Shown here piece after piece: positions 1 through 19,684 of a DNA stretch of 64,000 nucleotides. A program made the translations under genes and the position numbers. Positions within the stretch are counted from its first letter, which is position 1. Each line of letters begins with the position of its first letter. The notes below the pieces were generated by a model. That model saw only the letters and a list, made by a program, of their open reading frames with translations. It was not told the origin of the DNA and made no database searches. The DNA comes from an uncultured Enterobacteriaceae bacterium. Its GTDB lineage: Bacteria > Pseudomonadota > Gammaproteobacteria > Burkholderiales > SG8-39. The DNA lies in assembly GCA_964400745.1 (NCBI GenBank), contig CAYNVY010000003.1, positions 865 to 64,864 of the forward strand, written 5' to 3'.

Positions 1-1204
1 GCTGTTTTGCGCCCGGTTCAGTCTCAGCGCCGGCGCGATCCACGCGAACGCCGGCGCGATCTACACGAACGCTTGCGCGTTCAGGCCGATGATCGGCGTG
101 CAGGGCGATGCCGTGCACGGCTGCATTGCCCAGGCGCGAGCGCAGGCGCTCGATCAGACGTGGCCAATTGTCGCCTTCGCATAATTCATCGGAAAAGAGA
201 TTCTGGTTGGCGTGTGCCAGCGGCTCGATCGCCTGCACTTCCAGCGCGATGGAGTGCACCGGCTCGGCGAGCGCCGTCTGCTGCAACTGCTCGCGCAGCA
301 GCAACGCAAAGTGAGCCGCTTCGCGGCAGGTCGCGACCATTCCCAATTCGATCCGGGTGGCGGGCGCGGCGCGATGCGACAGGCTGAGCGTCAGCCGCCG
401 CGTGCCGGCGGCGCGCGCTGCGAGAAAGCCTTCGAGCTGCGCCAGCAGGCGCTTGGCTGCAAACAGCAGGGCTTCGGCCTGCGTGGCTTCGGCCGGCAGC
501 TCGATCGCGGCGCAAAAAGTTTCCGGCAGGACGCAAAAACCGCGCGGATCGGGCAGGCGGCCCAGGGCCTGATCCAGCGCGTCGAGCAGGCCCTGGCCGA
601 AGCGCCGCGCCAGCCCATCGCGCGGCAGCGCCAGCAGATCGCCGATGTTGCCGGCACCGACGGAGGACAGGGCTTCCTCCTGTGCGCATTGCAGCACCGA
701 CAGGGGCAGGGCGCCGAGTTCGTCTTCGAGCAGCGCGGCATCGGCTATCAGGCAGGATTTTCCAGCGCGTGCGAACCAGGACGCGGCGCGGGCAGTGGGC
801 GCGGCGGCGAGGCGCTCGCTGTAGCCCATCGCGGCAAGCCCCTGTCGCAGTCTCGCCGCTATGCGCGCCAGGCCGCCGAACAGCTTCAAACTGCCCGACA
901 CCTCCAGCAGCACCAGATCGGGAAATTCGAGTGCGACATTGGGCGTGCATTGCATCGCCCAGGCGGCGATGCCGAGCAGGGCTTCGGTTTCGGCCGCAGC
1001 GTCGCGTTCGCGCAGACGCAAGCCCGGCGCGAGTGCGAGCGCCGCCGTGACCGGCATGCCTGCGCGCAGGCCGCGCGCGGCGGCCTTGCCGTCGCAGACC
1101 AGGATGCGTTGCCGCTCGGTGATCGCGCAGGGCTCAGGCGAGGGCAAGCCGCGCTGGAACGCTTCCAGCGGCAGTTGCGGCAAATGCAGGGCGATCCAGA
1201 GCAT
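1..1204 (-). CDS. imuB: ImuB (Y-family-polymerase-like subunit of the ImuA-ImuB-DnaE2 SOS mutagenesis cassette), N-terminal 401 codons; runs off the left edge, so it is absent from the ORF track
   Basis: Hand translation of the minus strand from ATG 1204-1202 gives MLWIALHLPQLPLEAFQRGLPSPEPCAITERQRILVCDGKAAARGLRAGMPVTAALALAPGLRLRERD... The frame stays open to base 2. The N-terminus is ImuB-type, a LexA box lies 57 nt upstream, and imuA is nearby. Confidence 0.8.
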   Translation of the reverse strand, partial: MLWIALHLPQLPLEAFQRGLPSPEPCAITERQRILVCDGKAAARGLRAGMPVTAALALAPGLRLRERDAAAETEALLGIAAWAMQCTPNVALEFPDLVLLEVSGSLKLFGGLARIAARLRQGLAAMGYSERLAAAPTARAASWFARAGKSCLIADAALLEDELGALPLSVLQCAQEEALSSVGAGNIGDLLALPRDGLARRFGQGLLDALDQALGRLPDPRGFCVLPETFCAAIELPAEATQAEALLFAAKRLLAQLEGFLAARAAGTRRLTLSLSHRAAPATRIELGMVATCREAAHFALLLREQLQQTALAEPVHSIALEVQAIEPLAHANQNLFSDELCEGDNWPRLIERLRSRLGNAAVHGIALHADHRPERASVRVDRAGVRVDRAGAETEPGAKQ

Positions 1205-1260
1205 GAAGGTTCACGAACGATGGCAGCCTGATAAAGCAGGCTGGCGTCGAGTCCTAAAAA

Positions 1261-1276
1261 CTGTATATATGTACAG
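1261..1276. promoter_or_regulatory. LexA (SOS) box CTGTATATATGTACAG upstream of imuB, in the region shared with the divergent dehydrogenase
   Basis: Perfect CTGT-N8-ACAG palindrome, the consensus for beta/gammaproteobacterial LexA operators. It lies between imuB ATG (1204) and the dehydrogenase ATG (1369). Confidence 0.8.
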
Positions 1277-1303
1277 TATCCGGAAATTTTGCCAGCTTGT
1301 CCA
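1275..1303 (-). promoter_or_regulatory. Predicted sigma70 promoter of imuB (-35 TGGACA, 17-nt spacer, -10 GATACT overlapping the LexA box)
   Basis: Minus-strand reading TGGACA (1303-1298), 17 nt, GATACT (1280-1275). Same architecture as the imuA promoter. Confidence 0.5.
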
Positions 1304-1368
1304 GCGGGACCCCGTGCTCCAATGGCGCTGCCAGTGCGGCCGGTCGCAGTATCAAGGATAATCCGGCC

Positions 1369-2370
1369 ATGCCTGCGTCCAACTTGCCCATTTATCGGCT
1401 GCACCTGAAAAGTCAGCGCGAGGACGATCCCATCTATCACCTCACGCCACAGGTCTGGCATGAGGTCGCAGCGCGCCACGGCGATCTGGCTGCCTGCTTG
1501 CAGGTGAGCTACGGCTGGGACGAAGAAGGTTTGGAGCGCAATCTCGCCGATGCCGATTTCCTGGTAGGCACTCGATTCAGAAAGAATGTGCTCAACGCAG
1601 CAGGCGGCCTGCGATGGATTCATACCACGGGTGCCGGGGTGGACGGGCTCGCGCCGCTGGCGGAATTGCGCAATGACATTGTGCTCACCAACAGCAGCGG
1701 CATACACAGCGACAAGGCGCAGGAGTTCGTGCTCATGGCCTTGCTCATGCTGCAAAGCGGCATGCCGCGAATGATAGTCGCGCAAAGCGCATGTCGCTGG
1801 GATCCGCATTTCACCGCGACGCTCGCCGCCAAGACTGCGCTGGTGATCGGGTACGGCGACCTTGGCCAGGCTGCGGCGGCGGCAGCGCGATCGCAGTCGA
1901 TGCGCGTCGTGGCGGTTTCGCGCAGCGGCCGCTCCCAGCCCGGGGTGGCAGACCTCGTTTTGCCGGTGGCGCGACTCGATGAGGTGCTGCCAGCTGCGAA
2001 CTTCGTGGTGCTCACGACGCCGCTGACACAAGAGACGCACAATCTGCTCGATGCGACGCGGCTGGCGCTGCTACCGCGCGGAGCCGGAATCGTCAACATC
2101 GGGCGGGCCGGCTTGCTCGATCACGCAGCGCTATTCGCGGGGCTGCGCAGCGGCGCCTTGGGGGGCGCTGTGCTCGATGTGGTCGATCCCGAGCCACTGC
2201 CGCGAACGGCGGAGCACTGGCGCGTGCCCAATCTGATCGTCACACCGCACATTTCCTGCGACGCCCCCGACTACGCTGATCGCGTGCTCGATTTGTGGTT
2301 CGATAATTTCGGCCGTTTCGTGCGTGGCGAGACGCTGCGTAATTTGGTGGACCGGGGCCTGGGGTATTAG
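1369..2370 (+). CDS. D-isomer-specific 2-hydroxyacid dehydrogenase family protein (NAD-binding)
   Basis: The ORF 1297-2370 was trimmed to ATG 1369, which has AAGGA 11 nt upstream. It carries the Rossmann motif VIGYGDLGQAAA, LLPRGAGIVNIGRAGLLD, and a catalytic His context (LIVTPHIS). Confidence 0.85.
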   Translation: MPASNLPIYRLHLKSQREDDPIYHLTPQVWHEVAARHGDLAACLQVSYGWDEEGLERNLADADFLVGTRFRKNVLNAAGGLRWIHTTGAGVDGLAPLAELRNDIVLTNSSGIHSDKAQEFVLMALLMLQSGMPRMIVAQSACRWDPHFTATLAAKTALVIGYGDLGQAAAAAARSQSMRVVAVSRSGRSQPGVADLVLPVARLDEVLPAANFVVLTTPLTQETHNLLDATRLALLPRGAGIVNIGRAGLLDHAALFAGLRSGALGGAVLDVVDPEPLPRTAEHWRVPNLIVTPHISCDAPDYADRVLDLWFDNFGRFVRGETLRNLVDRGLGY

Positions 2371-3072
2371 CGGGAGGAGCGGTACGAGCGGCTGATTCAC
2401 GGCAGAGCGTTTCGCAGCATGATTAATCCACGGTGTTTGCCCGCCTGCCGACACAAGCGTTGCCGGCAGCAGAATCGGCCGCGCAATCGGTGCGCCGCGG
2501 CGTTTCAGGATGGATACGGCGAGCCCGCCCTGGTGCGTGGCGAGCGCGATGCGCAGCGCCGCAGGTGAAGGTTCGCGCGCGGCTGCGACGGGGCGGAACA
2601 GCACGACGAGACCGCCCCCGCCCTCGGCGGCGAGTTGCAGACGCCGCAACTGGGGGAAGGCGGGCGCGCGTGGCCAGAGGAGCACGCCGCCGCAGGCCGC
2701 CGAGCGCAGCGCCTGCTCCGCCGCCCACAGTGCGTCGCCGTCCCTGGCAGTCTTGACGATGACGATGCGGGCCAAGTCGATGCCGGCCGCGGCGAGCGCG
2801 GGCGCGTAGGGCAGGTGGGGCGGCGCGATCCAGGCGATGAAGCGGCCCTGCGCGGCAAGCTGCGCCAGCGCCGGGCCGAGGATGCGCAACTCGCCTATGC
2901 CTTCGTGCTGCGGCAGGATTTCGGTGAGCGCGCCGCAGGGCCAGCCGCCGCCCGGCAGTTCGGCGTCCAGCGGCGCAAAGCCCGAGGCGATGCCGGGACA
3001 GGCGGGGCGCGCCAATTCGCTGCCGCGCCAGACGCCGGGGTACTGCTCGAGTGCGGCCGCGGGGCTGGGCAT
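2131..3072 (-). CDS. imuA: ImuA (RecA/SulA-like SOS protein) with an anomalous C-terminal read-through tail
   Basis: From ATG 3072: MPSPAAALEQYPGVWRGSELARPACPGIASGFAPLDAELPGGGWPCGALTEILPQHEGIGELRILGPAL..., an ImuA-type motif (GF.PLD..LPGGGWP.G.LTE). GGAGAG precedes the ATG and a LexA box lies 17 nt upstream. Similarity fades near 2400-2440, but the first stop is TAG 2133-2131. Confidence 0.75.
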   Translation of the reverse strand: MPSPAAALEQYPGVWRGSELARPACPGIASGFAPLDAELPGGGWPCGALTEILPQHEGIGELRILGPALAQLAAQGRFIAWIAPPHLPYAPALAAAGIDLARIVIVKTARDGDALWAAEQALRSAACGGVLLWPRAPAFPQLRRLQLAAEGGGGLVVLFRPVAAAREPSPAALRIALATHQGGLAVSILKRRGAPIARPILLPATLVSAGGQTPWINHAAKRSAVNQPLVPLLPLIPQAPVHQITQRLATHETAEIIEPQIEHAISVVGGVAGNVRCDDQIGHAPVLRRSRQWLGIDHIEHSAPQGAAAQPRE

Positions 3073-3088
3073 GGGCTCTCCAAGAAAA

Positions 3089-3104
3089 CTGTATATCCAT
3101 ACAG
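3089..3104. promoter_or_regulatory. LexA (SOS) box CTGTATATCCATACAG upstream of imuA
   Basis: Perfect CTGT-N8-ACAG. It shares the flanking context AAAACTGTATAT...TACAGTATCC with the box at 1261-1276. Confidence 0.8.
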
Positions 3105-3131
3105 TATCCAGAGCTTTAGCCGTTTTGTCTA
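3103..3131 (-). promoter_or_regulatory. Predicted sigma70 promoter of imuA (-35 TAGACA, 17-nt spacer, -10 GATACT overlapping the LexA box)
   Basis: Minus-strand reading TAGACA (3131-3126), 17 nt, GATACT (3108-3103). Confidence 0.5.
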
Positions 3132-3156
3132 CCCGACAATTGCAAAGGGCCAGACG

Positions 3157-3198
3157 CAAGGTCAGGAACACAAGGTCAGGAACACAAGGTCAGGAACA
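3157..3198. repeat. Perfect 3 x 14-bp tandem repeat (CAAGGTCAGGAACA)3 in the imuA/uup divergent region
   Basis: Units at 3157-3170, 3171-3184 and 3185-3198 are identical. Confidence 0.95.
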
Positions 3199-3307
3199 TT
3201 TTGTCGCTTCGACCTATTCGCAGCCGGGCTTCATGGCCGATCTCACATGCGAGCGCCACGAGAAGCTGCCGATTACGGAAATCCGCTCGGTCAAGACCGC
3301 GCCTGAC

Positions 3308-3367
3308 GTCGACAAAACGCGGTAAACGCCCCGGGATGGGGTATCCTTGGGGCCGTTTTCCGTCGAC
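3308..3367 (+). promoter_or_regulatory. 60-nt nested imperfect palindrome (possible leader hairpin) just upstream of the uup start
   Basis: GTCGACAAAACG (3308-3319) pairs with CGTTTT-cc-GTCGAC (3354-3367). GCCCC (3328-3332) pairs with GGGGC (3349-3353). GGAT (3334-3337) pairs with ATCC (3343-3346). Confidence 0.5.
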
Positions 3368-3378
3368 ACCCCCTCCCG

Positions 3379-5298
3379 ATGCCTCTTATCCAGCTTTCCC
3401 AGGTCTCCCTGGCCTATGGCCATGTGCCCCTGCTCGATCACGTCGATCTGGTCATCGAGCCGGGCGAGCGCATCGGTCTGATCGGCCGCAACGGCACCGG
3501 CAAGTCCAGCCTGCTGAAACTCATGGCCGGCACCGCAGCCGCCGATGACGGCAAGGTTTGGCGCGGGCCGGAGCTGAAACTGGCGAGCGTGCCGCAGGAG
3601 CCCGCATTCGAGCCCGGTTTGAGCGTGTTCGAAGCGGTGGCGGAAGGGCTGGGAAAAGGCACTCAGCTGCTCATCGATTATCACGCCGCCGCCCACTCCC
3701 TGACCGCAGCGCACGACGCCGGTGCGCCGGCGGATCCTGCCCTGATGGAGCGGCTGCACGAGTTGCAGGAAGCGCTGGACGCGAGCGACGGCTGGAGCCT
3801 GGAGCACAAGGTTGCGAGCACGCTGTCGCGCCTGCAACTCGACGCTGACAGGCAGGTGTCGGAACTGTCCGGCGGCTTGAAAAAACGCGTCGCTCTGGCA
3901 CGCGCTCTGGTGCTGGCGCCGGATCTTCTGATTCTGGACGAACCGACCAACCACCTGGATGTGGCTGCGATCGAATGGCTGGAGCAGATGCTGCTGTCCT
4001 ATTCGGGCAGCGTGCTGTTCGTGACCCACGACCGGCGTTTCTTGGACAACGTCGCCACCCGGATCATCGAACTCGACCGCGGACTCCTCGGCAGCTACGA
4101 GGGCAATTTCAGCGCCTACCAGCAGGAGAAGGCGGCGGCGCTGGAAACGGAAGCCGTGCACAGCCGCAAGTTCGACAAGTTCCTGGCGCAGGAGGAAGTC
4201 TGGATCCGCCAGGGCATACAGGCGCGGCGAACGCGCAACGAAGGCCGGGTGCGGCGCCTGGAAGCGCTGCGACTGGAGCGCGCGGCACGGCGAAGCCGCG
4301 TCGGCAAGGTGGCGCTGGCGGTGGACGAAGGCGAGCGTTCGGGCAAGCTGGTGGTCGAATTGCGCGAGGTCGGCAAGCAATACGGGGGCAAACCGGTGGT
4401 GCGGGATTTTTCCTGCCGCATCCTGCGCGGCGACAAAGTCGGCCTGATCGGACCCAACGGCAGCGGCAAGACCACGCTGCTCAAACTGATCCTGGGCGAA
4501 ACCCAGCCGGACGAAGGGCTGGTGAGGCTGGGCACCAAGCTCGATTTCGCCTATTTCGACCAGTTTCGCGCCACCTTGGACGAGGAGGCGACGCTCGCCG
4601 ACACCATCAGCGTGGGCGGAGATTTCGTCGAAGTCAACGGCGTGCGCAAGCACGTGATCAGCTACCTGGGCGACTTCCTGTTTCCGCCGGAACGGGCGCG
4701 CGCGCCGGTCAAGTCACTATCGGGAGGGGAGCGCAACCGCCTGCTATTGGCGCGCCTGTTCAGCCGGCCGGCCAATGTGCTGGTGCTGGACGAGCCGACC
4801 AACGATCTGGATATCGAGACGCTGGAACTGCTGGAGGAACTGCTGCAGGACTATGCGGGTACCTTGTTCCTGGTGAGCCACGACCGGGCGTTTCTCGACA
4901 ATGTCGTGACGCAGACCATAGCCAGCGAGGGCGAGGGGGGGTGGAAGGAGTACGCCGGCGGCTTCAGCGACTGGCAGCGGGTGCAGTCCGCGGCCAAAGC
5001 CGAGGTTCCGGCGCGGCGCGGGCAAAAGCCCGCGGGGCAGTTAAAGAAAACGCCCACCGGATCGGCGCCGGTTAAATCTAGACTTAGCTTTAAGGAAGAT
5101 AAAGAACTATCTGAACTTCCTGGTAAAATAGATATCCTGGAAAAGGAGCAGAGCCAGATCACGGCCGCGCTTGCCAACGCGGCGCTATACCGGGACCAGC
5201 CCGAGCAGGTGAAGCAATTGAACCTGCGCTTTGCCGCGTTGGAGGCTGAACTCGCGTCGGCCATGCTGCGCTGGGAGCAACTGGAAGCGAAACGCTGA
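3379..5298 (+). CDS. uup: ABC-F family ATPase Uup
   Basis: 639 aa with two ABC cassettes: Walker A GRNGTGKSS and GPNGSGKTT, signatures LSGGLKKR and LSGGERNR. No TM segments. The C-terminal coiled-coil tail (SFKEDKELSELPGKIDILEKEQ...) matches Uup. Confidence 0.9.
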   Translation: MPLIQLSQVSLAYGHVPLLDHVDLVIEPGERIGLIGRNGTGKSSLLKLMAGTAAADDGKVWRGPELKLASVPQEPAFEPGLSVFEAVAEGLGKGTQLLIDYHAAAHSLTAAHDAGAPADPALMERLHELQEALDASDGWSLEHKVASTLSRLQLDADRQVSELSGGLKKRVALARALVLAPDLLILDEPTNHLDVAAIEWLEQMLLSYSGSVLFVTHDRRFLDNVATRIIELDRGLLGSYEGNFSAYQQEKAAALETEAVHSRKFDKFLAQEEVWIRQGIQARRTRNEGRVRRLEALRLERAARRSRVGKVALAVDEGERSGKLVVELREVGKQYGGKPVVRDFSCRILRGDKVGLIGPNGSGKTTLLKLILGETQPDEGLVRLGTKLDFAYFDQFRATLDEEATLADTISVGGDFVEVNGVRKHVISYLGDFLFPPERARAPVKSLSGGERNRLLLARLFSRPANVLVLDEPTNDLDIETLELLEELLQDYAGTLFLVSHDRAFLDNVVTQTIASEGEGGWKEYAGGFSDWQRVQSAAKAEVPARRGQKPAGQLKKTPTGSAPVKSRLSFKEDKELSELPGKIDILEKEQSQITAALANAALYRDQPEQVKQLNLRFAALEAELASAMLRWEQLEAKR

Positions 5299-5408
5299 GC
5301 TCGCATGGAACTGCGGCAGGCCTCACCGCTCAGGCGACTGGGCGATGACGGTCAATGGTAGCCATTGGATGGAAATACTATCTTCACTCCGGACTACCTA
5401 TACTTCGA

Positions 5409-5481
5409 GTTGACAATAGCGTTATAATGATTGACAATAAAAATTAATTTAATTTACAATTAATTTAATTGTGATTGACAA
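5409..5481. repeat. AT-rich island of iterated words: (T)GATTGACAA-type x3 and AATTAATTTAATT x2
   Basis: GTTGACAATA at 5409-5418. TGATTGACAA at 5428-5437 and 5472-5481. AATTAATTTAATT at 5442-5454 and 5458-5470. Confidence 0.9.
5431..5460 (+). promoter_or_regulatory. Predicted sigma70 promoter of the HTH-GHKL-STAS gene (-35 TTGACA, 18-nt spacer, -10 TACAAT); implies a near-leaderless mRNA
   Basis: TTGACA 5431-5436 and TACAAT 5455-5460. The GTG start at 5471 lies only about 4 nt beyond the expected transcription start. Confidence 0.5.
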
Positions 5482-6496
5482 ACATGCCCTGAGGCGCCGA
5501 GCATTGGTGCTTATCGCCGAGGACGGTCGCAGTGCGACGCGTAAGCTCGTGGCCGAATTCGGACTCTCGCGTCAAGCCGCGAACGGCCATTTAAAGGCAT
5601 TGCTGCGCGACAATCAGGTTGAGGCCGAAGGTAGCACCAGGGCGCGGGTCTATCGGCTCGCCACTATCGCGGAAACCATTCGCGACTATCCCGGCGGGGC
5701 CCTGCGGGAAGATGTTGTGTGGAGTGAGGTGTTTGCACCCGCCGTGGCGGAATTGCCGGAGAACGCTCGCGACATTTGGCGCTACGGTATTACCGAGATG
5801 GTGAACAATGCCATTGACCACTCGGGTTCAGCCCTGGTCCATGTGGGTGTCCGCCGCAACGCTCTCTACACCGACGGCTGGGTAGCCGACGATGGCGAGG
5901 GTATCTTTCTCAAGATCCAGCGGGCGTTCGGCCTCTATGATCCGCGCGAAGCCATACTCGAACTGGCCAAGGGCAAGCTGACCACGGACCCGCGCAACCA
6001 CTCGGGCGAGGGTATTTTTTTCGCGTCCAAGGTGCTCGACGCCTTTGACATCCGCTCCGGGCGCCTGCACTTCATGCACGGTAGCGGCGCGCTCGATGTG
6101 TTGACGGAGCGTTCGGCAGATGCGCCCGGAACCTTGGTCCTGATGCGGCTTGCCAACGACAGCGCCCGTACTGTGAAGTCAGTGTTCGACGAGTACGCCG
6201 CCCCGGAGGAATACACGTTCGCGAAGACGCTGGTGCCGGTCCGGCTCGCGCAGTACGAGGGCGAGAAACTGGTGTCGCGCTCCCAGGCAAAGCGGCTTTA
6301 CCAGCGCTTCGAGCGCTTCCGCCACGTGGTACTGGATTTCGATAGCGTTGCCGAGATCGGTCAGGCATTCGCGGACGAACTGTTTCGGGTCTTCGCGACC
6401 GCACATCCGGGCGTAACGCTTGTGCCGATCAACATGAGCACCGCGGTCGCTCAGATGGTCAGCCGTGCGCTGGCAAGCACGACTGGGCCAGCATGA
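5471..6496 (+). CDS. Orphan fusion protein: N-terminal winged-HTH, GHKL (histidine-kinase-like/anti-sigma-kinase-like) ATPase core, C-terminal STAS-like (DUF4325-type) domain
   Basis: HTH-like segment RKLVAEFGLSRQAANGHLKALLRDNQV. Bergerat-fold motifs EMVNNAIDHS (N box), DDGEGIF (G1) and SGEGIFF (G2). The C-terminus LVSRSQAKRLYQRFERFRHVVLDFDSVAEIGQAFADELF resembles STAS_2/DUF4325. Confidence 0.7.
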   Translation: MIDKHALRRRALVLIAEDGRSATRKLVAEFGLSRQAANGHLKALLRDNQVEAEGSTRARVYRLATIAETIRDYPGGALREDVVWSEVFAPAVAELPENARDIWRYGITEMVNNAIDHSGSALVHVGVRRNALYTDGWVADDGEGIFLKIQRAFGLYDPREAILELAKGKLTTDPRNHSGEGIFFASKVLDAFDIRSGRLHFMHGSGALDVLTERSADAPGTLVLMRLANDSARTVKSVFDEYAAPEEYTFAKTLVPVRLAQYEGEKLVSRSQAKRLYQRFERFRHVVLDFDSVAEIGQAFADELFRVFATAHPGVTLVPINMSTAVAQMVSRALASTTGPA

Positions 6497-6511
6497 TCCG
6501 GGCGGTCGGAT

Positions 6512-7741
<1,230 letters not shown>

Positions 7742-7859
7742 AATCGATTTTCAAAAGTCCCTAGACTGGTGGATTCGCTTGCTGCGCTTCGCCAAACAAC
7801 ATGACTCGCCCATGCACCCATTGCGTCCATCGCATCGTATCGGTGCAACGACTCCCGGC

Positions 7860-7868
7860 ATTCTAACA
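7860..7868 (-). promoter_or_regulatory. Possible extended -10 promoter element for dapL (TGTTAGAAT)
   Basis: Minus-strand TGT-TAGAAT, about 120 nt upstream of the dapL ATG. No good -35 element. Confidence 0.3.
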
Positions 7869-7986
7869 TTTGCCATCATCGCAATCGGACGCTGCGCAGG
7901 GCAAAATTTTGAGGGAAACAACGGGGCTTGCGTGAATTGTCACGCGGCTAACGGTTTCCCGAGTGAGCCATAGAGTCCCGGTTATT

Positions 7987-8011
7987 GAAAAATGGGGTTC
8001 GAGTTCTCCAT
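7987..8011 (-). terminator. Possible intrinsic terminator after the three-gene operon
   Basis: Minus-strand RNA AUGGAG-AACUCGAA-CCCCAU followed by UUUUU. The stem has 5 of 6 pairs. It starts about 19 nt after the stop at 8030. Confidence 0.4.
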
Positions 8012-8029
8012 CCGCTGGCGCAGGTTCGA

Positions 8030-9283
8030 TCACTTTATGTTGATTTCACAGTCGGCTGCCTTGGCGCCGTCGGTGTAGAACTTCCAGTCCCAGAGCGCGA
8101 CGATGCGTTGCCGGTTCAGCTCGTTGTACCGGGCGCTTTCGGTGACTAAGCCGTCGGCCCTCTTCAAAGCTTGCATCGCGGCGACGCGTTCCCTGTCGAG
8201 GTTTCGGGTGTCGTCGATTCTTGCCTGATAGTCTTCGCAGGAAATCTTCGGATAGTAGACGGCGGGCTTTCTGTACCCGGGGCTCAGGCGCTCGAAGTAT
8301 TCATTGGCCAGGTTGAAATAGGCGGTCTTGTACGGCTGGTCGTGTACCCTCGACATGTCGGCGTAGTCCTTCAGGATGACGTTCTTTTCGTCTTCGCTGA
8401 CGGCCCGATCGGATTTCAGCTTGTCCACCAGCTGCTGCAGCCGGTCGTACGCTTTCGGCATGAAGGTGTTTTCGACCAGCTTGTCGTAGTTCTCACAATC
8501 AGCAAGCTCCGGCAGCCAATGTCTCCGGGTGGTTGATTCAGCCGCATGCGGATTGCCGTCCTCCAGGTCCAACTGCGTGGAGACCTGGTAATTCGCATTC
8601 ACCTCCGCCTTGCACTCCGCCGTGGTCATACCTTCGTACCTGCCTAGTCCGGCAGGCTTGGGCCGGGCCAGGCGCTCGAAAAAATAGTTGCGGCATCCGC
8701 TGGCAAAATGCGGCGGGCCCTGGCAGAGGGAGGCTTTTGCCGGAAGATTGGACTTGGCCCAGTCGCGGCCGGCGAGGAACTGTCCATGACGACGCTCGGC
8801 GATCTGGCTCCGGCATCCGCGTTTGAACTCCGCGGACCCCGGGCATTCCGAACCCCGGATCGGCACCCTTTCCCTGGCCCAGTCGCGGCCGGCGAGAAAC
8901 TGTTCGCTTTCCGGTTCCGTGCGCGAGGCGCGATTGGGCGGCGTGCCGATCGAAGCGACCGGGACGAGCATCAGCATGAACAGCGGCCACAGCGTGACGA
9001 CTAGATAGCCGGCCGCTTTGGTCCTGGCACGCGCATCCTTGAAACTGCGGATCGCATTCAGCAACAATTTCACGAACGCCAGGAGCACCCCCGGCGCAAT
9101 GGCAATGCTCAAATAGCCGAAAACGGCCAGCAAAACGGGATCCGACCTATCCGTGGCCCCGATCAGCTTAATGCCGAGACCGAGGCACTGTGCCAGAACG
9201 GAAAGTGCGATGACGGCAATGGCGGTGCCGTTCAATATCCGGGGCAGGGACGGCCGGTCCATGGTTTCCTGTTCTGTCGTCAT
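8030..9283 (-). CDS. Hypothetical membrane protein (3 predicted TM helices plus a Cys-containing extracytoplasmic region with a tandem 40-aa repeat)
   Basis: The ORF 8030-9544 was trimmed to ATG 9283 (MTTEQETMDRPSLPRILNGTAIAVIALSVLAQ...). It has three hydrophobic helices and the repeat QFLAGRDWA(R/K)...C.G...F..GCR twice. No family recognised. Confidence 0.6.
   Translation of the reverse strand: MTTEQETMDRPSLPRILNGTAIAVIALSVLAQCLGLGIKLIGATDRSDPVLLAVFGYLSIAIAPGVLLAFVKLLLNAIRSFKDARARTKAAGYLVVTLWPLFMLMLVPVASIGTPPNRASRTEPESEQFLAGRDWARERVPIRGSECPGSAEFKRGCRSQIAERRHGQFLAGRDWAKSNLPAKASLCQGPPHFASGCRNYFFERLARPKPAGLGRYEGMTTAECKAEVNANYQVSTQLDLEDGNPHAAESTTRRHWLPELADCENYDKLVENTFMPKAYDRLQQLVDKLKSDRAVSEDEKNVILKDYADMSRVHDQPYKTAYFNLANEYFERLSPGYRKPAVYYPKISCEDYQARIDDTRNLDRERVAAMQALKRADGLVTESARYNELNRQRIVALWDWKFYTDGAKAADCEINIK
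8755..8905. repeat. Internal 120-bp tandem duplication inside the membrane-protein gene
   Basis: TGGCCCAGTCGCGGCCGGCGAG(G/A)AACTGT(C/T)C at 8755-8785 and 8875-8905: 29 of 31 identical, exactly 120 nt apart and in frame. Confidence 0.9.
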
Positions 9284-9314
9284 GTTCTTCGATTGCCCGA
9301 TCCGGCCCGCCGCA

Positions 9315-10799
9315 TCAGTCGCGCGCAAGCGCGTCGCCCATTCGCTGCAATCGCAACCGCACGGGATGCACCGGCTCCAGCGGTGCGTACAACACCTGCA
9401 GTTCGGCGACCGCAGCGCGCAACAAGGCGGCAGCCGCTGAATCGGAAATCGTGAAGCGCCGCCAGCAGTCCGCGTCGATAACGGGAGGCTTCGCAGCCGG
9501 CTCGCACGCCGCCAGCGCCCAGGCCGCGCGAGTCGCGGGCGCATCCCGGTACGCCTGCTCCATCAACTGATTGCTCTGGTCTTTGGGCAGCCAGAGTTCG
9601 GCGCGCGCCAATCGCAGGATGTCAGCGCGAAGTTCGATCGAGCGCAAGGCCGGATAGAGCCCGAGCGCCTCTTCGGGCCGCTCGGCGACGGAAATGCTGC
9701 CGATCACGGCTTTGACGATGCGCGGAATAAACGCCGGATCGGCATTGGGCAGCTCGCTGGCCAGTTTTTTGAAGGTGCCGGGAAAATTCCTGTCCGGCAG
9801 ATACAGCCAGACGCTGGCTCGGGGAGTTTGCGCGCCTGCTTCGGGAACGAGATACATCATCGCTCCGCCGTTTGCCTTCCGGCGCTCGCCGGACAGGGCG
9901 ACCGTGCGGGTGTCCTCGCCCACTTTCGCAACCAGCTCGACCGGCGCGCCGCCTTCGCTATCGAGCGCAATCGACACCGTCAACGCATGACCCGCAAGGT
10001 CCTGCCCGGCGAAATCCATCCACATCCGCCCATCGGCGACGCGGACCCGTAGGCTGTCTTCCGGCTTTGCGTCGGCCCCCCGCGGCACCAGGGGCACGAG
10101 GCGGACTCGCTCCAGCGCAGACTCTAGAGACAGCGCATTGCCCACCGCGATCGGGCCTTGCGCCAGGGCAGGAAATCCCCATTCGCGCCGCTCGCGCGCA
10201 TAGGCCGCACACTCGGCCGCAGTGGGGTTGGTTGCGCATTCCCCGTGCCGGCTTCGGGCGACCAGCGCATCCACGGCGAGCCGGGCTAGCGTGTCGGCGG
10301 AGTCGACGTCGAAGCCCTTGATCTGCAGTCGTTCAGGTTCGATCCAGGCTCTGTTTCGCAGAAAGTCCGCCAGGCGCTTGCGCACCGGGTGATCGCCGCC
10401 GGTAATCGCGCTGCTCGCCTTGGCCGCCACCAGGCGTCCTCTGAGGTCGTAGTCGATGTTTGCCCTAATCGACAGGGTGCGCGCGAGAGGCCATCGTTCC
10501 CCCTTGTCGCAGTTCAATTCCAGTATGCCTTTCGGTTTGCCGTCGGCTGGGGCTGCCTGGGGCAGGATGCAAACGTAGCCGTCCTTCTCGAGGAATTCGA
10601 CGACGGATTCTGCCTTCATGCCGTGATAGGCCCAACGATCGATGCCGGCATAGCCTGGGCTATGGGTTCCGGTATAGAACGCAATGGCAGGATCGACCCC
10701 TGGGGGCAAACTGCCGCTACCGACAAGACTCAGGTCGAGCAACGCCGTCAGCAACGCCGCGACGACCAGGACGATGGCACCCGCGCGCCGCCAACTCAT
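9315..10799 (-). CDS. Hypothetical protein with an N-terminal signal-anchor
   Basis: 494 aa. MSWRRAGAIVLVVAALLTALLDLSLV is hydrophobic. The ATG overlaps the upstream stop (ATGA at 10796-10799). No recognisable catalytic motif. Confidence 0.6.
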   Translation of the reverse strand: MSWRRAGAIVLVVAALLTALLDLSLVGSGSLPPGVDPAIAFYTGTHSPGYAGIDRWAYHGMKAESVVEFLEKDGYVCILPQAAPADGKPKGILELNCDKGERWPLARTLSIRANIDYDLRGRLVAAKASSAITGGDHPVRKRLADFLRNRAWIEPERLQIKGFDVDSADTLARLAVDALVARSRHGECATNPTAAECAAYARERREWGFPALAQGPIAVGNALSLESALERVRLVPLVPRGADAKPEDSLRVRVADGRMWMDFAGQDLAGHALTVSIALDSEGGAPVELVAKVGEDTRTVALSGERRKANGGAMMYLVPEAGAQTPRASVWLYLPDRNFPGTFKKLASELPNADPAFIPRIVKAVIGSISVAERPEEALGLYPALRSIELRADILRLARAELWLPKDQSNQLMEQAYRDAPATRAAWALAACEPAAKPPVIDADCWRRFTISDSAAAALLRAAVAELQVLYAPLEPVHPVRLRLQRMGDALARD

Positions 10800-11425
10800 C
10801 GCGCGGGACCCGCTGCGGCGGGCGCGACGGGAAGCCCGTCTACGGTGATGCGCCAGGTATTCTTCATCTCGGTCTTGTAGGTGAGCGCCACATCCTTGCC
10901 CGAAACGCTGCGCCCATATCGCGCCAGATTGACGTACGGAATGGGCGGCAGCGCAGGCCCCTTGTCCTCGGCCTCGGGCAAGGGGAGCAGACCGCGCAGC
11001 GCGCGCATCGTGTTTGCATAGTATTTGGTGCGCGCGTCGCCATGCTCCTGTGCGACCAATCGATAGCCGTGGCGGCGAAATAGCGCGTCGAAATGGGTAA
11101 AGGTGGCGGCCTGCAGCGCGGCATAGGTCTCGTCCGACGACAGTTTCGTATCCGGCCCCAGTGTCAGCTCTCCGATCAACTCGAGGCTGCGCCGTCCATC
11201 GACTGATTTCTCGCCGCTGTCATAGGTGGCCGCCTGGCTGACACAGGCGCGTATTTGGATCGGCGGCAGATAGGGGAGTTTCCATTCGATGCCGTCGAAA
11301 TCCCGCAGACAGCGCTTGAGTTCTTCCGTGCGCGGCTGTGCTGTCCCGGTCCCTGGCAGCAATAGAAGAACCGGGATCCAGGACAGAATTCCCCGGCAAA
11401 CCCGAAGGCCATTGGGCGTCTTCAT
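10796..11425 (-). CDS. Hypothetical secreted protein
   Basis: The ORF 10796-11716 was trimmed to ATG 11425 (MKTPNGLRVCRGILSWIPVLLLLPGTGTAQP..., signal-peptide-like). 209 aa, no family recognised. Confidence 0.55.
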   Translation of the reverse strand: MKTPNGLRVCRGILSWIPVLLLLPGTGTAQPRTEELKRCLRDFDGIEWKLPYLPPIQIRACVSQAATYDSGEKSVDGRRSLELIGELTLGPDTKLSSDETYAALQAATFTHFDALFRRHGYRLVAQEHGDARTKYYANTMRALRGLLPLPEAEDKGPALPPIPYVNLARYGRSVSGKDVALTYKTEMKNTWRITVDGLPVAPAAAGPAR

Positions 11426-11795
11426 CTCAGCAGTGCTGGTGTGAGATTGGGTGGAGTCGATTTGGATTCGGGATACCGATTGTTTGAATTTTCCAGAGAT
11501 CGAAAGCGCGAGCAACGATGCGACCGCGAAACTCGGAAACCTTAACGTGTTCGTCCGGCAACAATCCGTCCGACCGATATCGCTTCGCGCCGCCCGATTC
11601 GATCGCTGCAGAAACACTCGGGCGGGCACAAATGCGTTCGATGGCGCGTCCAGCCCAACGCGCGCGTGCGCTGGCAGTTTCGGGAGCAGTTCGCTGTAGA
11701 TCGGCGAAGCCGGCAATCTTTAGGCGAGGCTGCAAAACAGGCATAGCCAAGAGCACCATAAAATGCGGTCATGTTCACGCCCTCGCGGATCCGCG

Positions 11796-13358
11796 CTACA
11801 TCGACGCGATGATCGCACGGATGACTTTCGCGTCGGAGAATGTAATCTTCTTCGTCATGGCACGTCCACGCGAATCATTTAAGGGCAGACCCGCAAAGTC
11901 CCGTTCGAGCACGATCTGATAGTCCTCGTGGCCCTTGCCGGCCACGACCAGGACGTCGCCGGAACGCAATGCGGAAAGCGCGCGTTCCAAGGCTACACGG
12001 CGCGGGCCGGCGTTCGTTGCACGCGTGGTGCCCGAGAGAACCTGATTTCGGATGGCGTCCGGGTCTTCGGTGCGCGGATTGTCATCCGTCACCCAAACGC
12101 AATCGGCGAATTTCTCGGCAATGCGGCCCATGATGGGGCGCTTGCCCGGATCGCGATCGCCCCCGCATCCGAAGAGCACATGGAGTTTGTCTTTCGCGCC
12201 GACGTGCGGGCGCACGCTGCGCAGAACGTTGTGAAGGGCATCGGGCGTATGCGCGTAGTCCACGTAGACCGCCGCGCCGTGGGCGAGAACGGCGGCGAGT
12301 TCGAGGCGCCCCGGAACGCTGGTCAGGCGAGCGACGCCGGCAATTGCACGGTCGGTCGCCACGCCCGTGCCTATGGCCAAACCGAGCGCGCATAGGATGT
12401 TCTCCGCTTGAAACGCACCGGCCACCGGCGCCTCCACTTCATATGCGGCACCGAACACCGACAGCTTCAGCGTTTGTCCCTGTGTGTGCGGGACTCGATC
12501 GAGCACCACGAGGTCGGCGCCGCTTTCTGCTTCGCCATAGGAGATGACGCTGATCCCTCTTGACCGCATTGCCGAGGCGACCTGAATACCCGGCATGTCG
12601 CGGGTGTTGATGACAGCCACGCCGTCGGCTTTGAGCCGCTCGTTGAAGAGCCTCATCTTGGCCTGGAAGTAGTGCTCCATCGACAGGTGGTAGTCGAGGT
12701 GATCCTGGGTGAGATTGGTAAAGCCCGCTGCGTCGAATGTGACGCCGGCCAGTCGCTGCTGATCGAGGGCGTGGCTAGACGCCTCCATCGCAAGATGGGT
12801 AACGCCGTGCGCGCGCTCCAGTTCTCCGAGCATGATATGCAGGGTTTTCGCGTCGTACGTGGTCAGTCCCGCTTCAAGTTTGGAGTAGCTCTTGCCGCGG
12901 CCCTGCAAGCCCAGGGTTCCCAGACTGACTGCATTGCGGCCGTCCTCGTCCCACAGGTCGCGCAGAAAGCACACCGTGGAGGTCTTGCCGTTGGTGCCGG
13001 TGACAGATGCGATCGTGACCGGACGGCCGGAATGAAAGTCGGCCGCCACCCGCGCATGGAATCCGCGTATGTCCCGGACGCGCAGGACGGCGATCTTTTC
13101 GCGCTCGTACTCGTTGAGACCCAGCGCTTCGTCGCGCGTGCCTTCCGGAACGGCGATGGCCTGCGCACCCTTGGCCGCGGCCTGCGAGCAGAACGCGAGG
13201 CCATGGTCTTTGGTGCCCGGCAGGGCGCAGAACAGGTAGCCGAAACGAACATCCCTGGAATCGTCGGTAACCCCGGAAATGAAAAGGTCTTTCGTTTCTG
13301 GCGTGTCCGGCCGCAGCGTGCCAACGCCGTGCTTCGCCCACAGATCGCCTAATCTCAT
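11796..13358 (-). CDS. murE: UDP-N-acetylmuramoyl-L-alanyl-D-glutamate--2,6-diaminopimelate ligase, stand-alone copy outside any visible dcw cluster
   Basis: 520 aa. It carries the Mur ligase P-loop GTNGKTST, the meso-DAP specificity motif DNPR (VTDDNPRTEDP), and AGKGHEDYQ. Confidence 0.85.
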   Translation of the reverse strand: MRLGDLWAKHGVGTLRPDTPETKDLFISGVTDDSRDVRFGYLFCALPGTKDHGLAFCSQAAAKGAQAIAVPEGTRDEALGLNEYEREKIAVLRVRDIRGFHARVAADFHSGRPVTIASVTGTNGKTSTVCFLRDLWDEDGRNAVSLGTLGLQGRGKSYSKLEAGLTTYDAKTLHIMLGELERAHGVTHLAMEASSHALDQQRLAGVTFDAAGFTNLTQDHLDYHLSMEHYFQAKMRLFNERLKADGVAVINTRDMPGIQVASAMRSRGISVISYGEAESGADLVVLDRVPHTQGQTLKLSVFGAAYEVEAPVAGAFQAENILCALGLAIGTGVATDRAIAGVARLTSVPGRLELAAVLAHGAAVYVDYAHTPDALHNVLRSVRPHVGAKDKLHVLFGCGGDRDPGKRPIMGRIAEKFADCVWVTDDNPRTEDPDAIRNQVLSGTTRATNAGPRRVALERALSALRSGDVLVVAGKGHEDYQIVLERDFAGLPLNDSRGRAMTKKITFSDAKVIRAIIASM

Positions 13359-13627
13359 ATTGATCTTATTTTACACGGCGATGGCGGACTGCCAATCAAG
13401 CATTTCTTGGGTCAATTTTCGCTACGCACATCGCCACAGCGCCGGTGCTGATCCTCGCAAACGCAAACGACATGCAGCGCCTTGGATCGGTCGCTCGGCT
13501 TCTCAATCATGCTTTGAGCCAGATCCTTCCGGTTACACCCGGAGACCGCTGGATCTGTCGCGTGTCGGTCGCGCCCCCCGGAGCAATAGCTTGCCCACAC
13601 TCCTGATAAGGGTATACCATCGACGTG

Positions 13628-13668
13628 GTTGCACGGTTCCACGCCTTGTTCCACGCCTTGGTTCAACG
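13628..13668 (+). promoter_or_regulatory. Iterated GTT(G/C)(C/A)ACG motif (4 copies, including a perfect 12-bp tandem GTTCCACGCCTT x2) upstream of the ABC operon
   Basis: GTTGCACG 13628-13635, GTTCCACG 13636-13643, GTTCCACG 13648-13655, GTTCAACG 13661-13668. The last copy is 38 nt before ATG 13706. Confidence 0.6.
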
Positions 13669-13705
13669 ACTTTGGACAGACCACCAAAATAAGGGGGAAG
13701 AGAAC

Positions 13706-14968: not shown

Positions 14969-14990
14969 CGCCAGTCAAGTAGTCATACGC

Positions 14991-16431: not shown

Positions 16432-16458
16432 CGGGGAGCGTTTTATGGGGAGCGTCAA

Positions 16459-17331: not shown

Positions 17332-17334
17332 GCC

Positions 17335-18327: not shown

Positions 18328-18347
18328 CCAACGAAAGAGGAATCCTC

Positions 18348-19634: not shown

Positions 19635-19684
19635 GGACAGGCTTCAAAGGCCGGAAACAGAGGAAGCTCTCACTCCGTGACACG

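What the first reader, a model, noticed from the sequence alone, without database searches (positions are those of the whole stretch)
5471..6496. Orphan single-polypeptide HTH + GHKL ATPase + STAS-like protein
One 341-aa ORF combines modules that normally act as separate partner-switching proteins:
- a winged-HTH-like N-terminus
- an RsbW/SpoIIAB-like GHKL core (EMVNNAIDHS, DDGEGIF, SGEGIFF)
- a STAS-like DUF4325-type C-terminus (VVLDFDSVAEIGQAFADELF)

No sigma factor, phosphatase, sensor or second component is adjacent. The gene sits alone between uup and the convergent dapL. It lies behind the AT-rich island and looks slightly less GC-rich than its neighbours, which is consistent with acquisition.

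To my knowledge this architecture has no experimentally defined function. GHKL ATPases joined to DNA-binding domains recur in conflict and defence contexts, but that link is inference only here.
Basis: partly seen in the sequence, partly recalled or inferred. Interest (0 to 1): 0.55.

Follow-up and report, generated by a model that had tools for sequence, protein, structure and literature searches.

The report
Single-chain HTH–kinase-like–STAS autoregulator gene
This gene encodes an uncharacterised one-protein version of a recently described bacterial "kinase plus STAS-repressor" switch; it carries its own repeated DNA-binding sites in its promoter, and in other genomes some relatives sit inside anti-phage restriction-like systems, but here it stands alone.

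Summary
The ORF is real: 5471-6496 (+), 341 aa. Its three modules hold up:
- an N-terminal winged HTH;
- a SpoIIAB/RsbW-like GHKL domain with invariant N, G1 and G2 boxes;
- a C-terminal STAS-like DUF4325 domain.

It belongs to a large family of uniform length. About 790 clusters at 50% identity score E<1e-30, and at least 530 species genomes carry it. No match was found in the plasmid or phage collections.

New here: nearly every member carries 3-5 direct repeats at 21-22 bp spacing just upstream. In the window these are TTGACAAT-type sites at 5410, 5431, 5453 and 5475. They overlap a sigma-70-like promoter and co-vary with the recognition helix, so the protein probably represses its own gene.

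The canonical STAS phospho-serine is replaced by invariant Gln/Ala.

No partner gene is conserved. About 10-15% of homologues lie between the methylase and ATPase of Hma (BREX-related) systems, and some lie between hsdS and hsdR.

The window copy is solitary, of normal GC, and has diverged in step with uup (dN/dS 0.13). It is therefore not a recent acquisition.

The closest known system is CapK/CapS and VapKSC (EMBO J 2026). This is a new single-chain variant, and its function is untested.

The parts
5410..5418 (+). Operator repeat 1 (TTGACAATA). It doubles as a -35-like hexamer.
   Evidence: Exact 9-nt direct repeat with 5431-5439, spacing 21. The only two TTGACAAT sites in the 64 kb are here. 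The paired pattern is unique in the window, with 0.03 expected by chance.
5431..5439 (+). Operator repeat 2 (TTGACAATA). It serves as the -35 of the best promoter match, and its GACAAT serves as the -10 partner of repeat 1.
   Evidence: Promoter scan: TTGACA-18-TACAAT at 5431-5460 scores 11/12, and TTGACA-17-GACAAT at 5410-5438 scores 10/12.
5453..5460 (+). Operator repeat 3 (TTTACAAT). It contains the -10-like TACAAT, which ends 10 nt before the start codon. No Shine-Dalgarno sequence follows.
   Evidence: Sequence read. Sites lie at -61, -40 and -18 from the start codon, as in the closest homologues.
5475..5482 (+). Operator-like repeat 4 (TTGACAAA), inside codons 2-4 (I-D-K).
   Evidence: TGATTGACAA is repeated at 5428 and 5472. 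A site at +4 is shared by 8-9 members of the window's clade. It would explain the near-invariant D3 and K4.
5471..6496 (+). CDS of 341 aa with a GTG start, encoding a wHTH-GHKL-STAS(DUF4325) protein.
5477..5668 (+). Winged helix-turn-helix domain (residues about 3-66). The recognition helix is about residues 34-46 (SRQAANGHLKALL).
   Evidence: Secondary structure of the AF2 model. Sub-threshold HTH profile hits. hhalign to the CapS wHTH gives E=0.0033. The recognition helix co-varies with the upstream repeat motif.
5696..6205 (+). GHKL (Bergerat-fold) ATP-binding domain, SpoIIAB/RsbW-like (residues about 76-245). Motifs: N box TEMVNNAIDHS, G1 DDGEGIF, lid KGKLTT, G2 HSGEGIFF.
6206..6484 (+). 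STAS-like DUF4325 domain (residues about 246-338). It carries the invariant motifs LVSRSQ and IGQAFADE and has no Ser/Thr at the canonical phospho-acceptor position.

Best explanation
The gene encodes a self-contained, single-chain sensor-repressor.

**DNA binding (inferred from conservation and covariation).**
- The N-terminal winged HTH binds an array of 3-4 direct repeats of TTGACAAT type, spaced 21-22 bp apart, so that all sites face one side of the helix.
- The array overlaps the gene's own sigma-70-type promoter and its start codon.
- The protein therefore represses its own transcription.

**Switch module (inferred by analogy only).**
- The GHKL ATP-binding domain and the fused, non-phosphorylatable STAS-like domain form the signal-sensing part.
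- The analogy is with CapK, in which a STAS-GHKL groove binds ssDNA and activates the kinase.
- ATP binding or hydrolysis, or phosphorylation at a non-canonical site, in response to a stress signal would change oligomerisation or DNA affinity and relieve repression.

**Role in other genomes.** Where relatives sit directly upstream of hmaC or hsdR, the same switch would gate expression of the effector half of an R-M-like defence system.

**Role here.** The window copy is an orphan that is vertically inherited and under purifying selection. It controls itself and possibly unlinked targets outside the 64 kb.
For: **Architecture.** Pfam, the AF2 models and Foldseek all agree. The ATP-binding residues are invariant across 87 sequences down to 47% identity.

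**Operator array.**
- 61 of 84 unique upstream regions have a chain of 3 or more 7-mers at 20-23 nt spacing. Only 13 of 1680 shuffled controls do.
- The positions relative to the start codon are conserved, at about -61, -40 and -18.
- The motif changes with the recognition helix. SRQ(A/V)ANGHL goes with TTGACAAT, SRQSASAWL with CTTTACGTTT, S(K/R)QAASRHLHALE with TGTTGTCGA, TKQSAAKHL with CTGTCTAT, and SVQAAIRHV with TGTTTACTA.
- A sigma-70-like promoter is present in 71 of 84 upstream regions. In the window it scores 11/12.
- The paired site occurs only once in the window. In Hma loci the motif clusters lie only upstream of this gene.

**Functional analogy.** CapS represses its own promoter and is released through the GHKL kinase CapK. 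VapS, a DUF4325 member, is the substrate of VapK.

**Placement in other genomes.**
- The gene lies between hmaB and hmaC, 46-48 nt upstream of hmaC.
- It also lies directly upstream of hsdR in L031 and L086.

**Selection.** dN/dS is 0.128 and dS equals that of uup.
Against: - No experiment exists for this family. DNA binding, ATPase or kinase activity and the signal are all inferred.
- Homology to CapK and CapS is only weak: hhalign E=0.03 and 0.0033, with low probabilities. The domain order also differs.
- The STAS domain lacks the phospho-acceptor, so the CapS mechanism cannot apply literally.
- I had no model coordinates or PAE, so the GHKL-STAS interface is untested.
- Most loci, including the window, have no co-directional downstream gene to control. 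What benefit an orphan autorepressor gives remains open.
Confidence: 0.55

Rival explanations
1. It is a fused single-gene toxin-antitoxin-like or abortive-infection module.
- The SpoIIAB-like GHKL domain would be an anti-sigma or kinase effector that shuts down host or phage transcription.
- The fused STAS domain would be its cis-antagonist.
- The wHTH would provide TA-style autorepression.
For: - Autoregulatory promoter architecture.
- Patchy distribution across many phyla.
- Neighbours include Xre-RES, MNT-HEPN, IetS-like, Fic, DRT and R-M genes.
- VapS, a DUF4325 member, is an antitoxin.
- The GHKL fold is closest to anti-sigma factors.
Against: - There is no recognisable effector beyond the GHKL domain.
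- No hit was found in 72,556 plasmids or 50,697 phage records.
- The gene has co-diverged with the housekeeping gene uup under strong purifying selection.
- PADLOC has no model for it.
Confidence: 0.15
2. It is a trans-acting transcription factor of an ordinary cellular regulon, for example one sensing energy state or stress through ATP. Further operator arrays would lie elsewhere in the genome.
For: - The gene is vertically inherited, shows housekeeping-like selection and has normal composition.
- Most loci are in housekeeping contexts.
Against: - No second paired site exists in the 64 kb.
- Operator specificity diversifies rapidly between clades. This is typical of self-contained modules rather than of conserved regulons.
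- No neighbour or target gene is conserved.
Confidence: 0.15
3. It is a non-functional or decaying orphan left behind after loss of an Hma/BREX-related system.
For: - The window protein is 71% identical to Hma-embedded copies.
- L019, which belongs to the window's clade, and L020, L025 and L055 keep only fragments of hmaB and hmaC around the gene.
Against: - The ORF is intact and all catalytic motifs are present.
- dN/dS is 0.13.
- The operator and promoter are intact.
- No Hma remnants are found in the window.
- Most clades of the family are solitary, and Hma linkage is confined to one subclade.
Confidence: 0.05
4. It is a classical partner-switching anti-sigma factor with a built-in antagonist, controlling an unlinked alternative sigma factor.
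For: SpoIIAB, RsbW and UsfX are the best structural matches. A JGI annotation reads 'anti-sigma regulatory factor'.
Against: - The STAS phospho-acceptor Ser is absent in all 87 sequences.
- No sigma factor or PP2C phosphatase is adjacent here or recurrent in 147 neighbouring genes.
- A DNA-binding wHTH and an operator array are not features of such modules.
Confidence: 0.07

Closest known systems
CapK/CapS, 'controller of adjacent pathways' (Chambers et al., EMBO J 2026, PMC13373217)
   Same: - Same three domain types: HTH/wHTH, anti-sigma-like GHKL kinase and STAS.
- The repressor binds its own promoter.
- The genes are found next to, or sandwiched within, R-M-like and other immune operons.
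- The GHKL N-box region (SELIGNVRDHSES against TEMVNNAIDHSGS) and the wHTH show weak profile similarity.
   Different: - CapK/CapS are two proteins, HTH-STAS-GHKL plus STAS-wHTH. Here there is one chain in the order wHTH-GHKL-STAS.
- CapS Ser54 is replaced here by Gln298/Ala299.
- CapS binds TTAA palindromes. Here there are 3-4 direct repeats at 21-22 bp spacing.
- CapK and CapS are not Pfam DUF4325 members.
- 348 of 443 capKS pairs precede an immune operon, whereas most members of this family are solitary.
- The signal for CapK is ssDNA. It is untested here.
VapK/VapS/VapC toxin-antitoxin system (same paper)
   Same: VapS belongs to the same Pfam family, DUF4325 (E=2.7e-17). It shares the LDF...F motif and the upstream [ST]-R motif, and it is paired with a GHKL kinase.
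   Different: - VapS is a separate 116-aa antitoxin that is phosphorylated on S48 and binds a PIN toxin.
- Here there is no PIN gene, the acceptor Ser is absent, and the domain is fused to the GHKL and wHTH domains.
SpoIIAB-SpoIIAA and RsbW-RsbV partner-switching modules
   Same: The GHKL domain is structurally closest to SpoIIAB and RsbW. The C-terminal domain has a STAS fold.
   Different: There is no phospho-Ser, no sigma factor and no PP2C phosphatase. The modules are fused into one chain with a DNA-binding domain.
Defence-system transcriptional controllers: BrxR/CapW (wHTH-WYL), CapH/CapP and the C proteins of type II R-M systems
   Same: They are small autoregulated repressors placed so as to gate expression of the effector or restriction gene. 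In Hma and type I R-M loci this gene has the same position, between the methylase and specificity genes and the ATPase or nuclease gene.
   Different: The sensor domains are unrelated (GHKL plus STAS rather than WYL, peptidase or none). Most copies are not attached to a defence system.
Hma (HmaABC), also called type-1 'BREX-related' DUF499 systems (PADLOC; PMC11232893; PMC12839542)
   Same: One subclade of the family is embedded between hmaB and hmaC.
   Different: - The gene is not one of the three core Hma genes.
- Term searches of these two papers' text, and of the supplementary files held for PMC12839542 (none were held for PMC11232893), found no mention of it.
- No Hma genes are present in the window.

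Membership tests
Pfam DUF4325 (STAS-like, PF14213) | Profile match above the gathering threshold | tested here: met
   54.7 bits against a cutoff of 23, E=8.5e-15, residues 272-326. All 120 listed homologues carry PF14213.
Pfam DUF4325 (STAS-like, PF14213) | STAS-type alpha/beta fold | tested here: met
   The domain model has a beta-alpha-beta-alpha-beta-alpha order. Its top Foldseek PDB hits are STAS domains, although E-values are only about 1e-2. No sequence-level PDB relative exists.
GHKL / Bergerat-fold ATPase-kinases (SpoIIAB/RsbW type) | N box (ExxxN), G1 (DxGxG) and G2 (GxG) ATP-binding motifs | tested here: met
   E109, N113, D140, G142, G144, G179 and G181 are 100% conserved in 87 sequences.
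GHKL / Bergerat-fold ATPase-kinases (SpoIIAB/RsbW type) | Bergerat fold | tested here: met
   Foldseek finds SpoIIAB (1l0o, 1til, 1th8, 1tid), RsbW and UsfX at probability 1.0 and TMt 0.67-0.77. The Pfam HATPase_c_2 hit is below threshold.
GHKL / Bergerat-fold ATPase-kinases (SpoIIAB/RsbW type) | ATP hydrolysis or protein kinase activity | not testable with these tools
   This needs a biochemical assay.
Partner-switching module (anti-sigma kinase with STAS antagonist) | Conserved phospho-acceptor Ser/Thr at the N-terminus of STAS helix 2 | tested here: not met
   The position aligned to CapS S54 and VapS S48 is Q298 (100%) and A299 (97%, otherwise G).
Partner-switching module (anti-sigma kinase with STAS antagonist) | Cognate sigma factor and/or PP2C phosphatase in the locus | tested here: not met
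   The window neighbours are uup and an aminotransferase. Neither family is among the recurrent ones listed for the 147 flanking genes.
CapK/CapS | Two adjacent genes: capK (HTH-STAS-GHKL) followed by capS (STAS-wHTH) | tested here: not met
   There is a single ORF in the order wHTH-GHKL-STAS.
CapK/CapS | Sequence homology to CapK or CapS | tested here: inconclusive
   hhalign of A1 against CapK gives E=0.03 and probability 1.7%, covering the N box to G1 only. Against the CapS wHTH it gives E=0.0033 and probability 9.7%.
CapK/CapS | The repressor binds its own promoter | tested here: inconclusive
   A conserved periodic repeat array overlaps the promoter and co-varies with the recognition helix. 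No binding experiment exists.
CapK/CapS | Encoded directly upstream of an immune operon | tested here: not met
   In the window the downstream gene is a convergent aminotransferase. Only some homologues meet this feature: those in Hma loci, upstream of hsdR, or next to SoFic or PDC-S23 genes.
CapK/CapS | Kinase activated by ssDNA | not testable with these tools
   This needs biochemistry or AF3 modelling with ssDNA.
VapKSC | Three-gene operon with a PIN (VapC) toxin | tested here: not met
   No PIN gene flanks the ORF.
Hma / type-1 BREX-related system (as an accessory gene) | HmaA, HmaB and HmaC genes in the locus | tested here: not met
   tblastn with HmaA, HmaB and HmaC finds nothing in the 64 kb. 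The feature is met in L003, L008, L027, L029, L034, L043, L058 and L077.

The most novel reading that the evidence does not exclude
The family is an autonomous single-chain alarm switch, with sensor, ATP-driven switch and repressor in one polypeptide plus an iteron-like promoter.
- Unrelated R-M-like systems (Hma/BREX-related and type I R-M) have captured it repeatedly between their modification and effector genes, to gate effector expression.
- The many solitary copies, including this one, are functional. They would act in trans, or as stand-alone stress or phage sensors, through a non-canonical mechanism that uses a pseudosubstrate STAS domain.
Probability: 0.3. Interest if true: 0.65.

Novelty: new variant of a known kind. 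Interest (0 to 1): 0.5.

Why it matters
**Extending a new principle.** GHKL-kinase/STAS pairs were shown only in 2026 to control immune-operon transcription and a toxin-antitoxin system. This family would extend that principle to a much larger, single-chain form, with about 790 clusters at 50% identity across many phyla. Its STAS domain has lost the phospho-acceptor, which implies a different switching chemistry, such as a pseudosubstrate, an ATP-driven conformational switch or an alternative phosphorylation site.

**Ready-made experiments.** The conserved operator array gives immediate handles for EMSA, reporter fusions and specificity swaps.

**A candidate regulator for Hma.** The gene's position between the methylase and effector genes of Hma and type I R-M systems suggests a regulator not mentioned in the papers I checked. 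How those systems are regulated has not been established.

**The solitary majority.** The solitary, vertically maintained copies raise the question of what an orphan autorepressor with an intact ATPase does for the cell.

Tried and rejected
**Searches that found nothing useful.**
- PADLOC on the protein gave only weak Csa3 wHTH hits.
- PDB sequence searches with the protein, and with a profile of the STAS domain, found no relatives.
- blastn and tblastn against plasmids, and tblastn against phages, found no match.
- Rfam on the upstream region and gene found nothing. No tRNA lies in 1-20000 that could mark an integration site.
- A search for a second operator pair in the window found none.
- tblastn for Hma, HsdR, Fic and AAA_14 genes in the window found none.
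- Term searches of the BREX-related and Hma papers, and of the supplementary files held for the first, found no mention of DUF4325, STAS, HATPase or GHKL.

**Ideas tested and rejected.**
- A conserved partner gene. Of 147 immediately flanking genes, 163 Pfam families were hit and none in more than 3 genes. All-against-all clustering of 1181 neighbouring ORFs gave no partner either. The recurrent clusters were generic histidine kinases, ABC ATPases and an antisense artefact.
- Compositional evidence of horizontal transfer, which was not found.
- Orthology to CapK or CapS, for which similarity was only weak.

It was redone with A5.
- Model coordinates and PAE are not exposed, so docking of the STAS domain on the ATP lid could not be checked.
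Full report
**1. The observation**

The ORF exists as described: 5471-6496 (+), 341 aa, GTG start. The start agrees with the M-x-D-K N-termini of homologues.

Profile searches:
- Pfam gives a significant DUF4325 (STAS-like) match at residues 272-326, E=8.5e-15.
- HATPase_c_2 (E=9.5e-4) and the wHTH families (DIP2311-like_C, HTH_24) are below threshold.
- NCBIfam gives only a weak ArsR-type HTH.
- PADLOC gives nothing relevant.

Structure prediction:
- An AF2 model built on 58 homologues has pLDDT 82.5 and pTM 0.75. It shows a wHTH (residues 4-63), an alpha/beta GHKL core, and a C-terminal beta-alpha-beta-alpha-beta-alpha domain.
- The best PDB matches are the anti-sigma kinases SpoIIAB, RsbW and UsfX, with probability 1.0 and TMt 0.67-0.77.
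- The C-terminal domain modelled alone (pLDDT 80) has STAS domains as its top hits: prestin, RsbS and the stressosome.

All three modules are therefore real.

Neighbours are uup (ABC-F, 3379-5298, +) and a convergent class I/II aminotransferase (6512-7741, -), 15 nt beyond the stop codon. No sigma factor or phosphatase is adjacent.

The claim of lower GC fails. The gene's GC is 0.620 against a window mean of 0.626. Only the 172-nt upstream spacer is AT-rich, at 0.41.

**2. The family**

- More than 6,864 clusters at 90% identity match. The best 120 are 66-100% identical and 318-359 aa long.
- Against representatives at 50% identity, 2,638 proteins score E<1e-3 and 791 score E<1e-30. Among the 150 listed, most are about 340-360 aa and match over nearly the whole query.
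Among the 80 loci kept, they span Gamma- and Betaproteobacteria, Chlorobium, Cyanobacteria, Acidobacteriota, Planctomycetota, Anaerolineae, Actinomycetota and Desulfobacterota.
- Nothing was found in 72,556 plasmids or 50,697 phage records. The viral structure library gave only domain-level matches.

In 87 sequences of 47-100% identity the GHKL and STAS cores are nearly invariant:
- GHKL: E109, N113, H117, D140, G142, G144, K167-G-K169, T172, H177, G179, G181.
- STAS: R270, I296-G-Q298, F300, D302-E303.

The wHTH, by contrast, is variable.

**3.

Nearly every member has 3-5 copies of an 8-10 nt motif in the last 90 nt or so before the start codon, with a 21-22 bp period.

Statistics:
- 61 of 84 unique upstream regions have a chain of 3 or more copies.
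- Only 13 of 1,680 shuffled controls do.

In the window:
- The sites are TTGACAATA at 5410 and at 5431, TTTACAAT at 5453, and TTGACAAA at 5475 inside codons 2-4.
- These are the only TTGACAAT sites in the 64 kb. The paired pattern is unique, with 0.03 expected by chance.

Link to the promoter:
- Because of the 21-bp period, each repeat supplies a -35 (TTGACA) and the next supplies a -10 (GACAAT or TACAAT).
- The scan finds TTGACA-18-TACAAT at 11/12 and TTGACA-17-GACAAT at 10/12.
- 71 of 84 upstream regions have such a promoter.
- The -10 ends 10 nt before the GTG and no Shine-Dalgarno sequence follows. The mRNA may therefore be nearly leaderless; this is an inference.

The motif differs between clades and tracks the recognition helix:

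| Recognition helix | Repeat motif |
|---|---|
| SRQ(A/V)ANGHL | TTGACAAT |
| SRQSASAWL | CTTTACGTTT |
| S(K/R)QAASRHLHALE | TGTTGTCGA |
| TKQSAAKHL | CTGTCTAT |
| SVQAAIRHV | TGTTTACTA |

The arrangement is conserved while the sequence co-evolves with the helix. That is what one expects of the protein's own operator.

**4. Context in homologues**

There is no universal partner.
- The 147 immediately flanking genes hit 163 Pfam families, none in more than 3 genes.
- Clustering 1,181 neighbouring ORFs gave the same answer.

Recurrent placements do exist.
- One monophyletic subclade lies between HmaB (DUF1156 methylase) and HmaC (HEPN-DUF499 ATPase), 46-48 nt upstream of hmaC. These are L003, L008, L027, L029, L034, L043, L058 and L077. 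Four further loci (L019, L020, L025, L055) keep only Hma fragments.
- In the CTTTACGTTT clade the gene lies directly upstream of hsdR in L031 and L086. L042 has an HsdR-like gene about 4.8 kb upstream. RhuM/Fic (PDC-S23) or SoFic genes lie nearby in L039, L040, L042 and L051.
- Other copies sit next to an IetS-like/UvrD/MNT-HEPN island (L001), an Xre-RES pair (L099), eCIS-core and DndB genes (L100), or integrases (L033, L038).
- Many sit among plain housekeeping genes.

In Hma loci the motif clusters occur only upstream of this gene.

**5. The window copy**

- Its closest relative, P0003 in L096 (88% aa identity), sits in the same place downstream of uup.
- Synteny covers window 67-6477 and ends right after the gene. 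In L096 an AAA_14/DUF4143 gene follows.
- dS is 0.52 and dN/dS is 0.128 for the gene. For uup the values are 0.56 and 0.117.
- The gene has therefore been resident since the two genomes diverged and is under purifying selection. It is neither a recent import nor a decaying remnant.
- No Hma, HsdR, Fic or AAA_14 genes are in the 64 kb.

**6. Comparison with what is known**

The literature search found Chambers et al., EMBO J 2026 (PMC13373217).
- CapK is an HTH-STAS-GHKL kinase. It is activated by ssDNA bound between its STAS and GHKL domains.
- CapK phosphorylates Ser54 of CapS, a STAS-wHTH repressor of its own promoter and of a downstream immune operon.
- VapK/VapS/VapC uses the same pair to release a PIN toxin.

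Using sequences from the paper's source data, I found:
- VapS is a bona fide DUF4325 member (E=2.7e-17). CapK and CapS are not.
- hhalign of the family against CapK aligns only the N box to G1 (E=0.03). Against CapS it aligns only the wHTH (E=0.0033).
- Anchored on the shared LDF motif, the phospho-acceptor (VapS S48, CapS S54) falls on invariant Q298/A299.

The protein therefore works like a member of the CapK/CapS world but is not a member of either family. It differs in four ways:
- It is one chain with a different domain order.
- The acceptor Ser is absent.
- Its operators are direct repeats rather than palindromes.
- It is mostly solitary.

It also fails the defining tests of classical partner switching, having no phospho-Ser, sigma factor or PP2C.

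**7. Most likely mechanism**

- Shown: the architecture, the invariant ATP-binding motifs, the conserved periodic repeats overlapping a promoter, the covariation with the recognition helix, and purifying selection.
- Inferred: the wHTH binds the repeats cooperatively on one face of the DNA and represses the gene's own promoter.
- Inferred: where hmaC or hsdR lies directly downstream on the same strand, repression may extend to it by read-through.
- Inferred by analogy only: the GHKL and pseudosubstrate-like STAS module senses a signal and changes oligomerisation or DNA affinity. ssDNA or DNA damage is the obvious candidate. The change could come through ATP binding or hydrolysis, or through phosphorylation at a non-canonical site. 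The invariant S269/S271 at the N-cap of STAS helix 1 and T171/T172 in the ATP lid are candidates.

Rivals are set out with their tests in the Rival explanations section. They are a fused TA-like or abortive module, a trans-acting regulon factor, a decayed Hma orphan, and a classical anti-sigma factor.

**8. Verdict**

- This is a new single-chain variant of a recently established kind of regulator. It is a large, uncharacterised family, with a newly noticed operator array and a link to Hma and type I R-M loci that the papers I checked do not mention.
- Interest is moderate.

Noticed in passing
window 8033-11428 (-): Three consecutive ORFs (about 411, 494 and 210 aa) between the aminotransferase and murE have no Pfam hit at E<=1e-3. 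The same three genes are called, also without Pfam hits, on the Logan contig L007.
   Followed up: no
window 2134-3171 (-): A 346-aa ORF upstream of uup has a weak SulA-family match (E=1.4e-4, just below the Pfam cutoff). It might be an ImuA/SulA-like SOS gene, but this is my guess and was not checked.
   Followed up: no
window 5455-5473: The -10-like TACAAT ends 10 nt before the GTG start codon, and no Shine-Dalgarno sequence lies between them. The transcript may be nearly leaderless. Some family members do have AGGAG-like sequences upstream, so this is not universal.
   Followed up: partly
window 5475-5482, and codons 2-4 of homologues: The near-invariant N-terminal residues D3 and K4 are encoded by TTGACAAA, which forms a fourth operator-like repeat inside the CDS. 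Their conservation may reflect a constraint on the DNA rather than on the protein.
   Followed up: partly
L096 7150-8568, compared with window 6477 onward: Synteny with the closest relative ends exactly at the 3' end of the gene. In L096 an AAA_14/DUF4143 ATPase and different genes follow, so the downstream flank is a rearrangement or insertion point.
   Followed up: partly
L019 3450-3731 and 6149-6421; L020; L025; L055: Short tblastn fragments of hmaB and hmaC (39-97 aa) flank intact copies of the gene. This suggests that Hma systems decayed while the regulator-like gene survived.
   Followed up: partly
L100 29-9067: One homologue sits between a 2,053-aa and a 541-aa protein, both with eCIS_core domains. 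A DndB-family gene follows about 2.5 kb downstream.
   Followed up: no
L003 3263-5024: In this Hma locus a GmrSD_N/NsnA-like gene and a HEPN_RiboL-PSP gene are inserted between hmaA and hmaB. This fits the published idea that hma operons are insertion hotspots for other defence genes (PMC11232893).
   Followed up: no
PMC5499597, table of PIN groups: [quoted passage not shown] In hindsight this may be the vapKSC operon characterised in 2026.
   Followed up: partly
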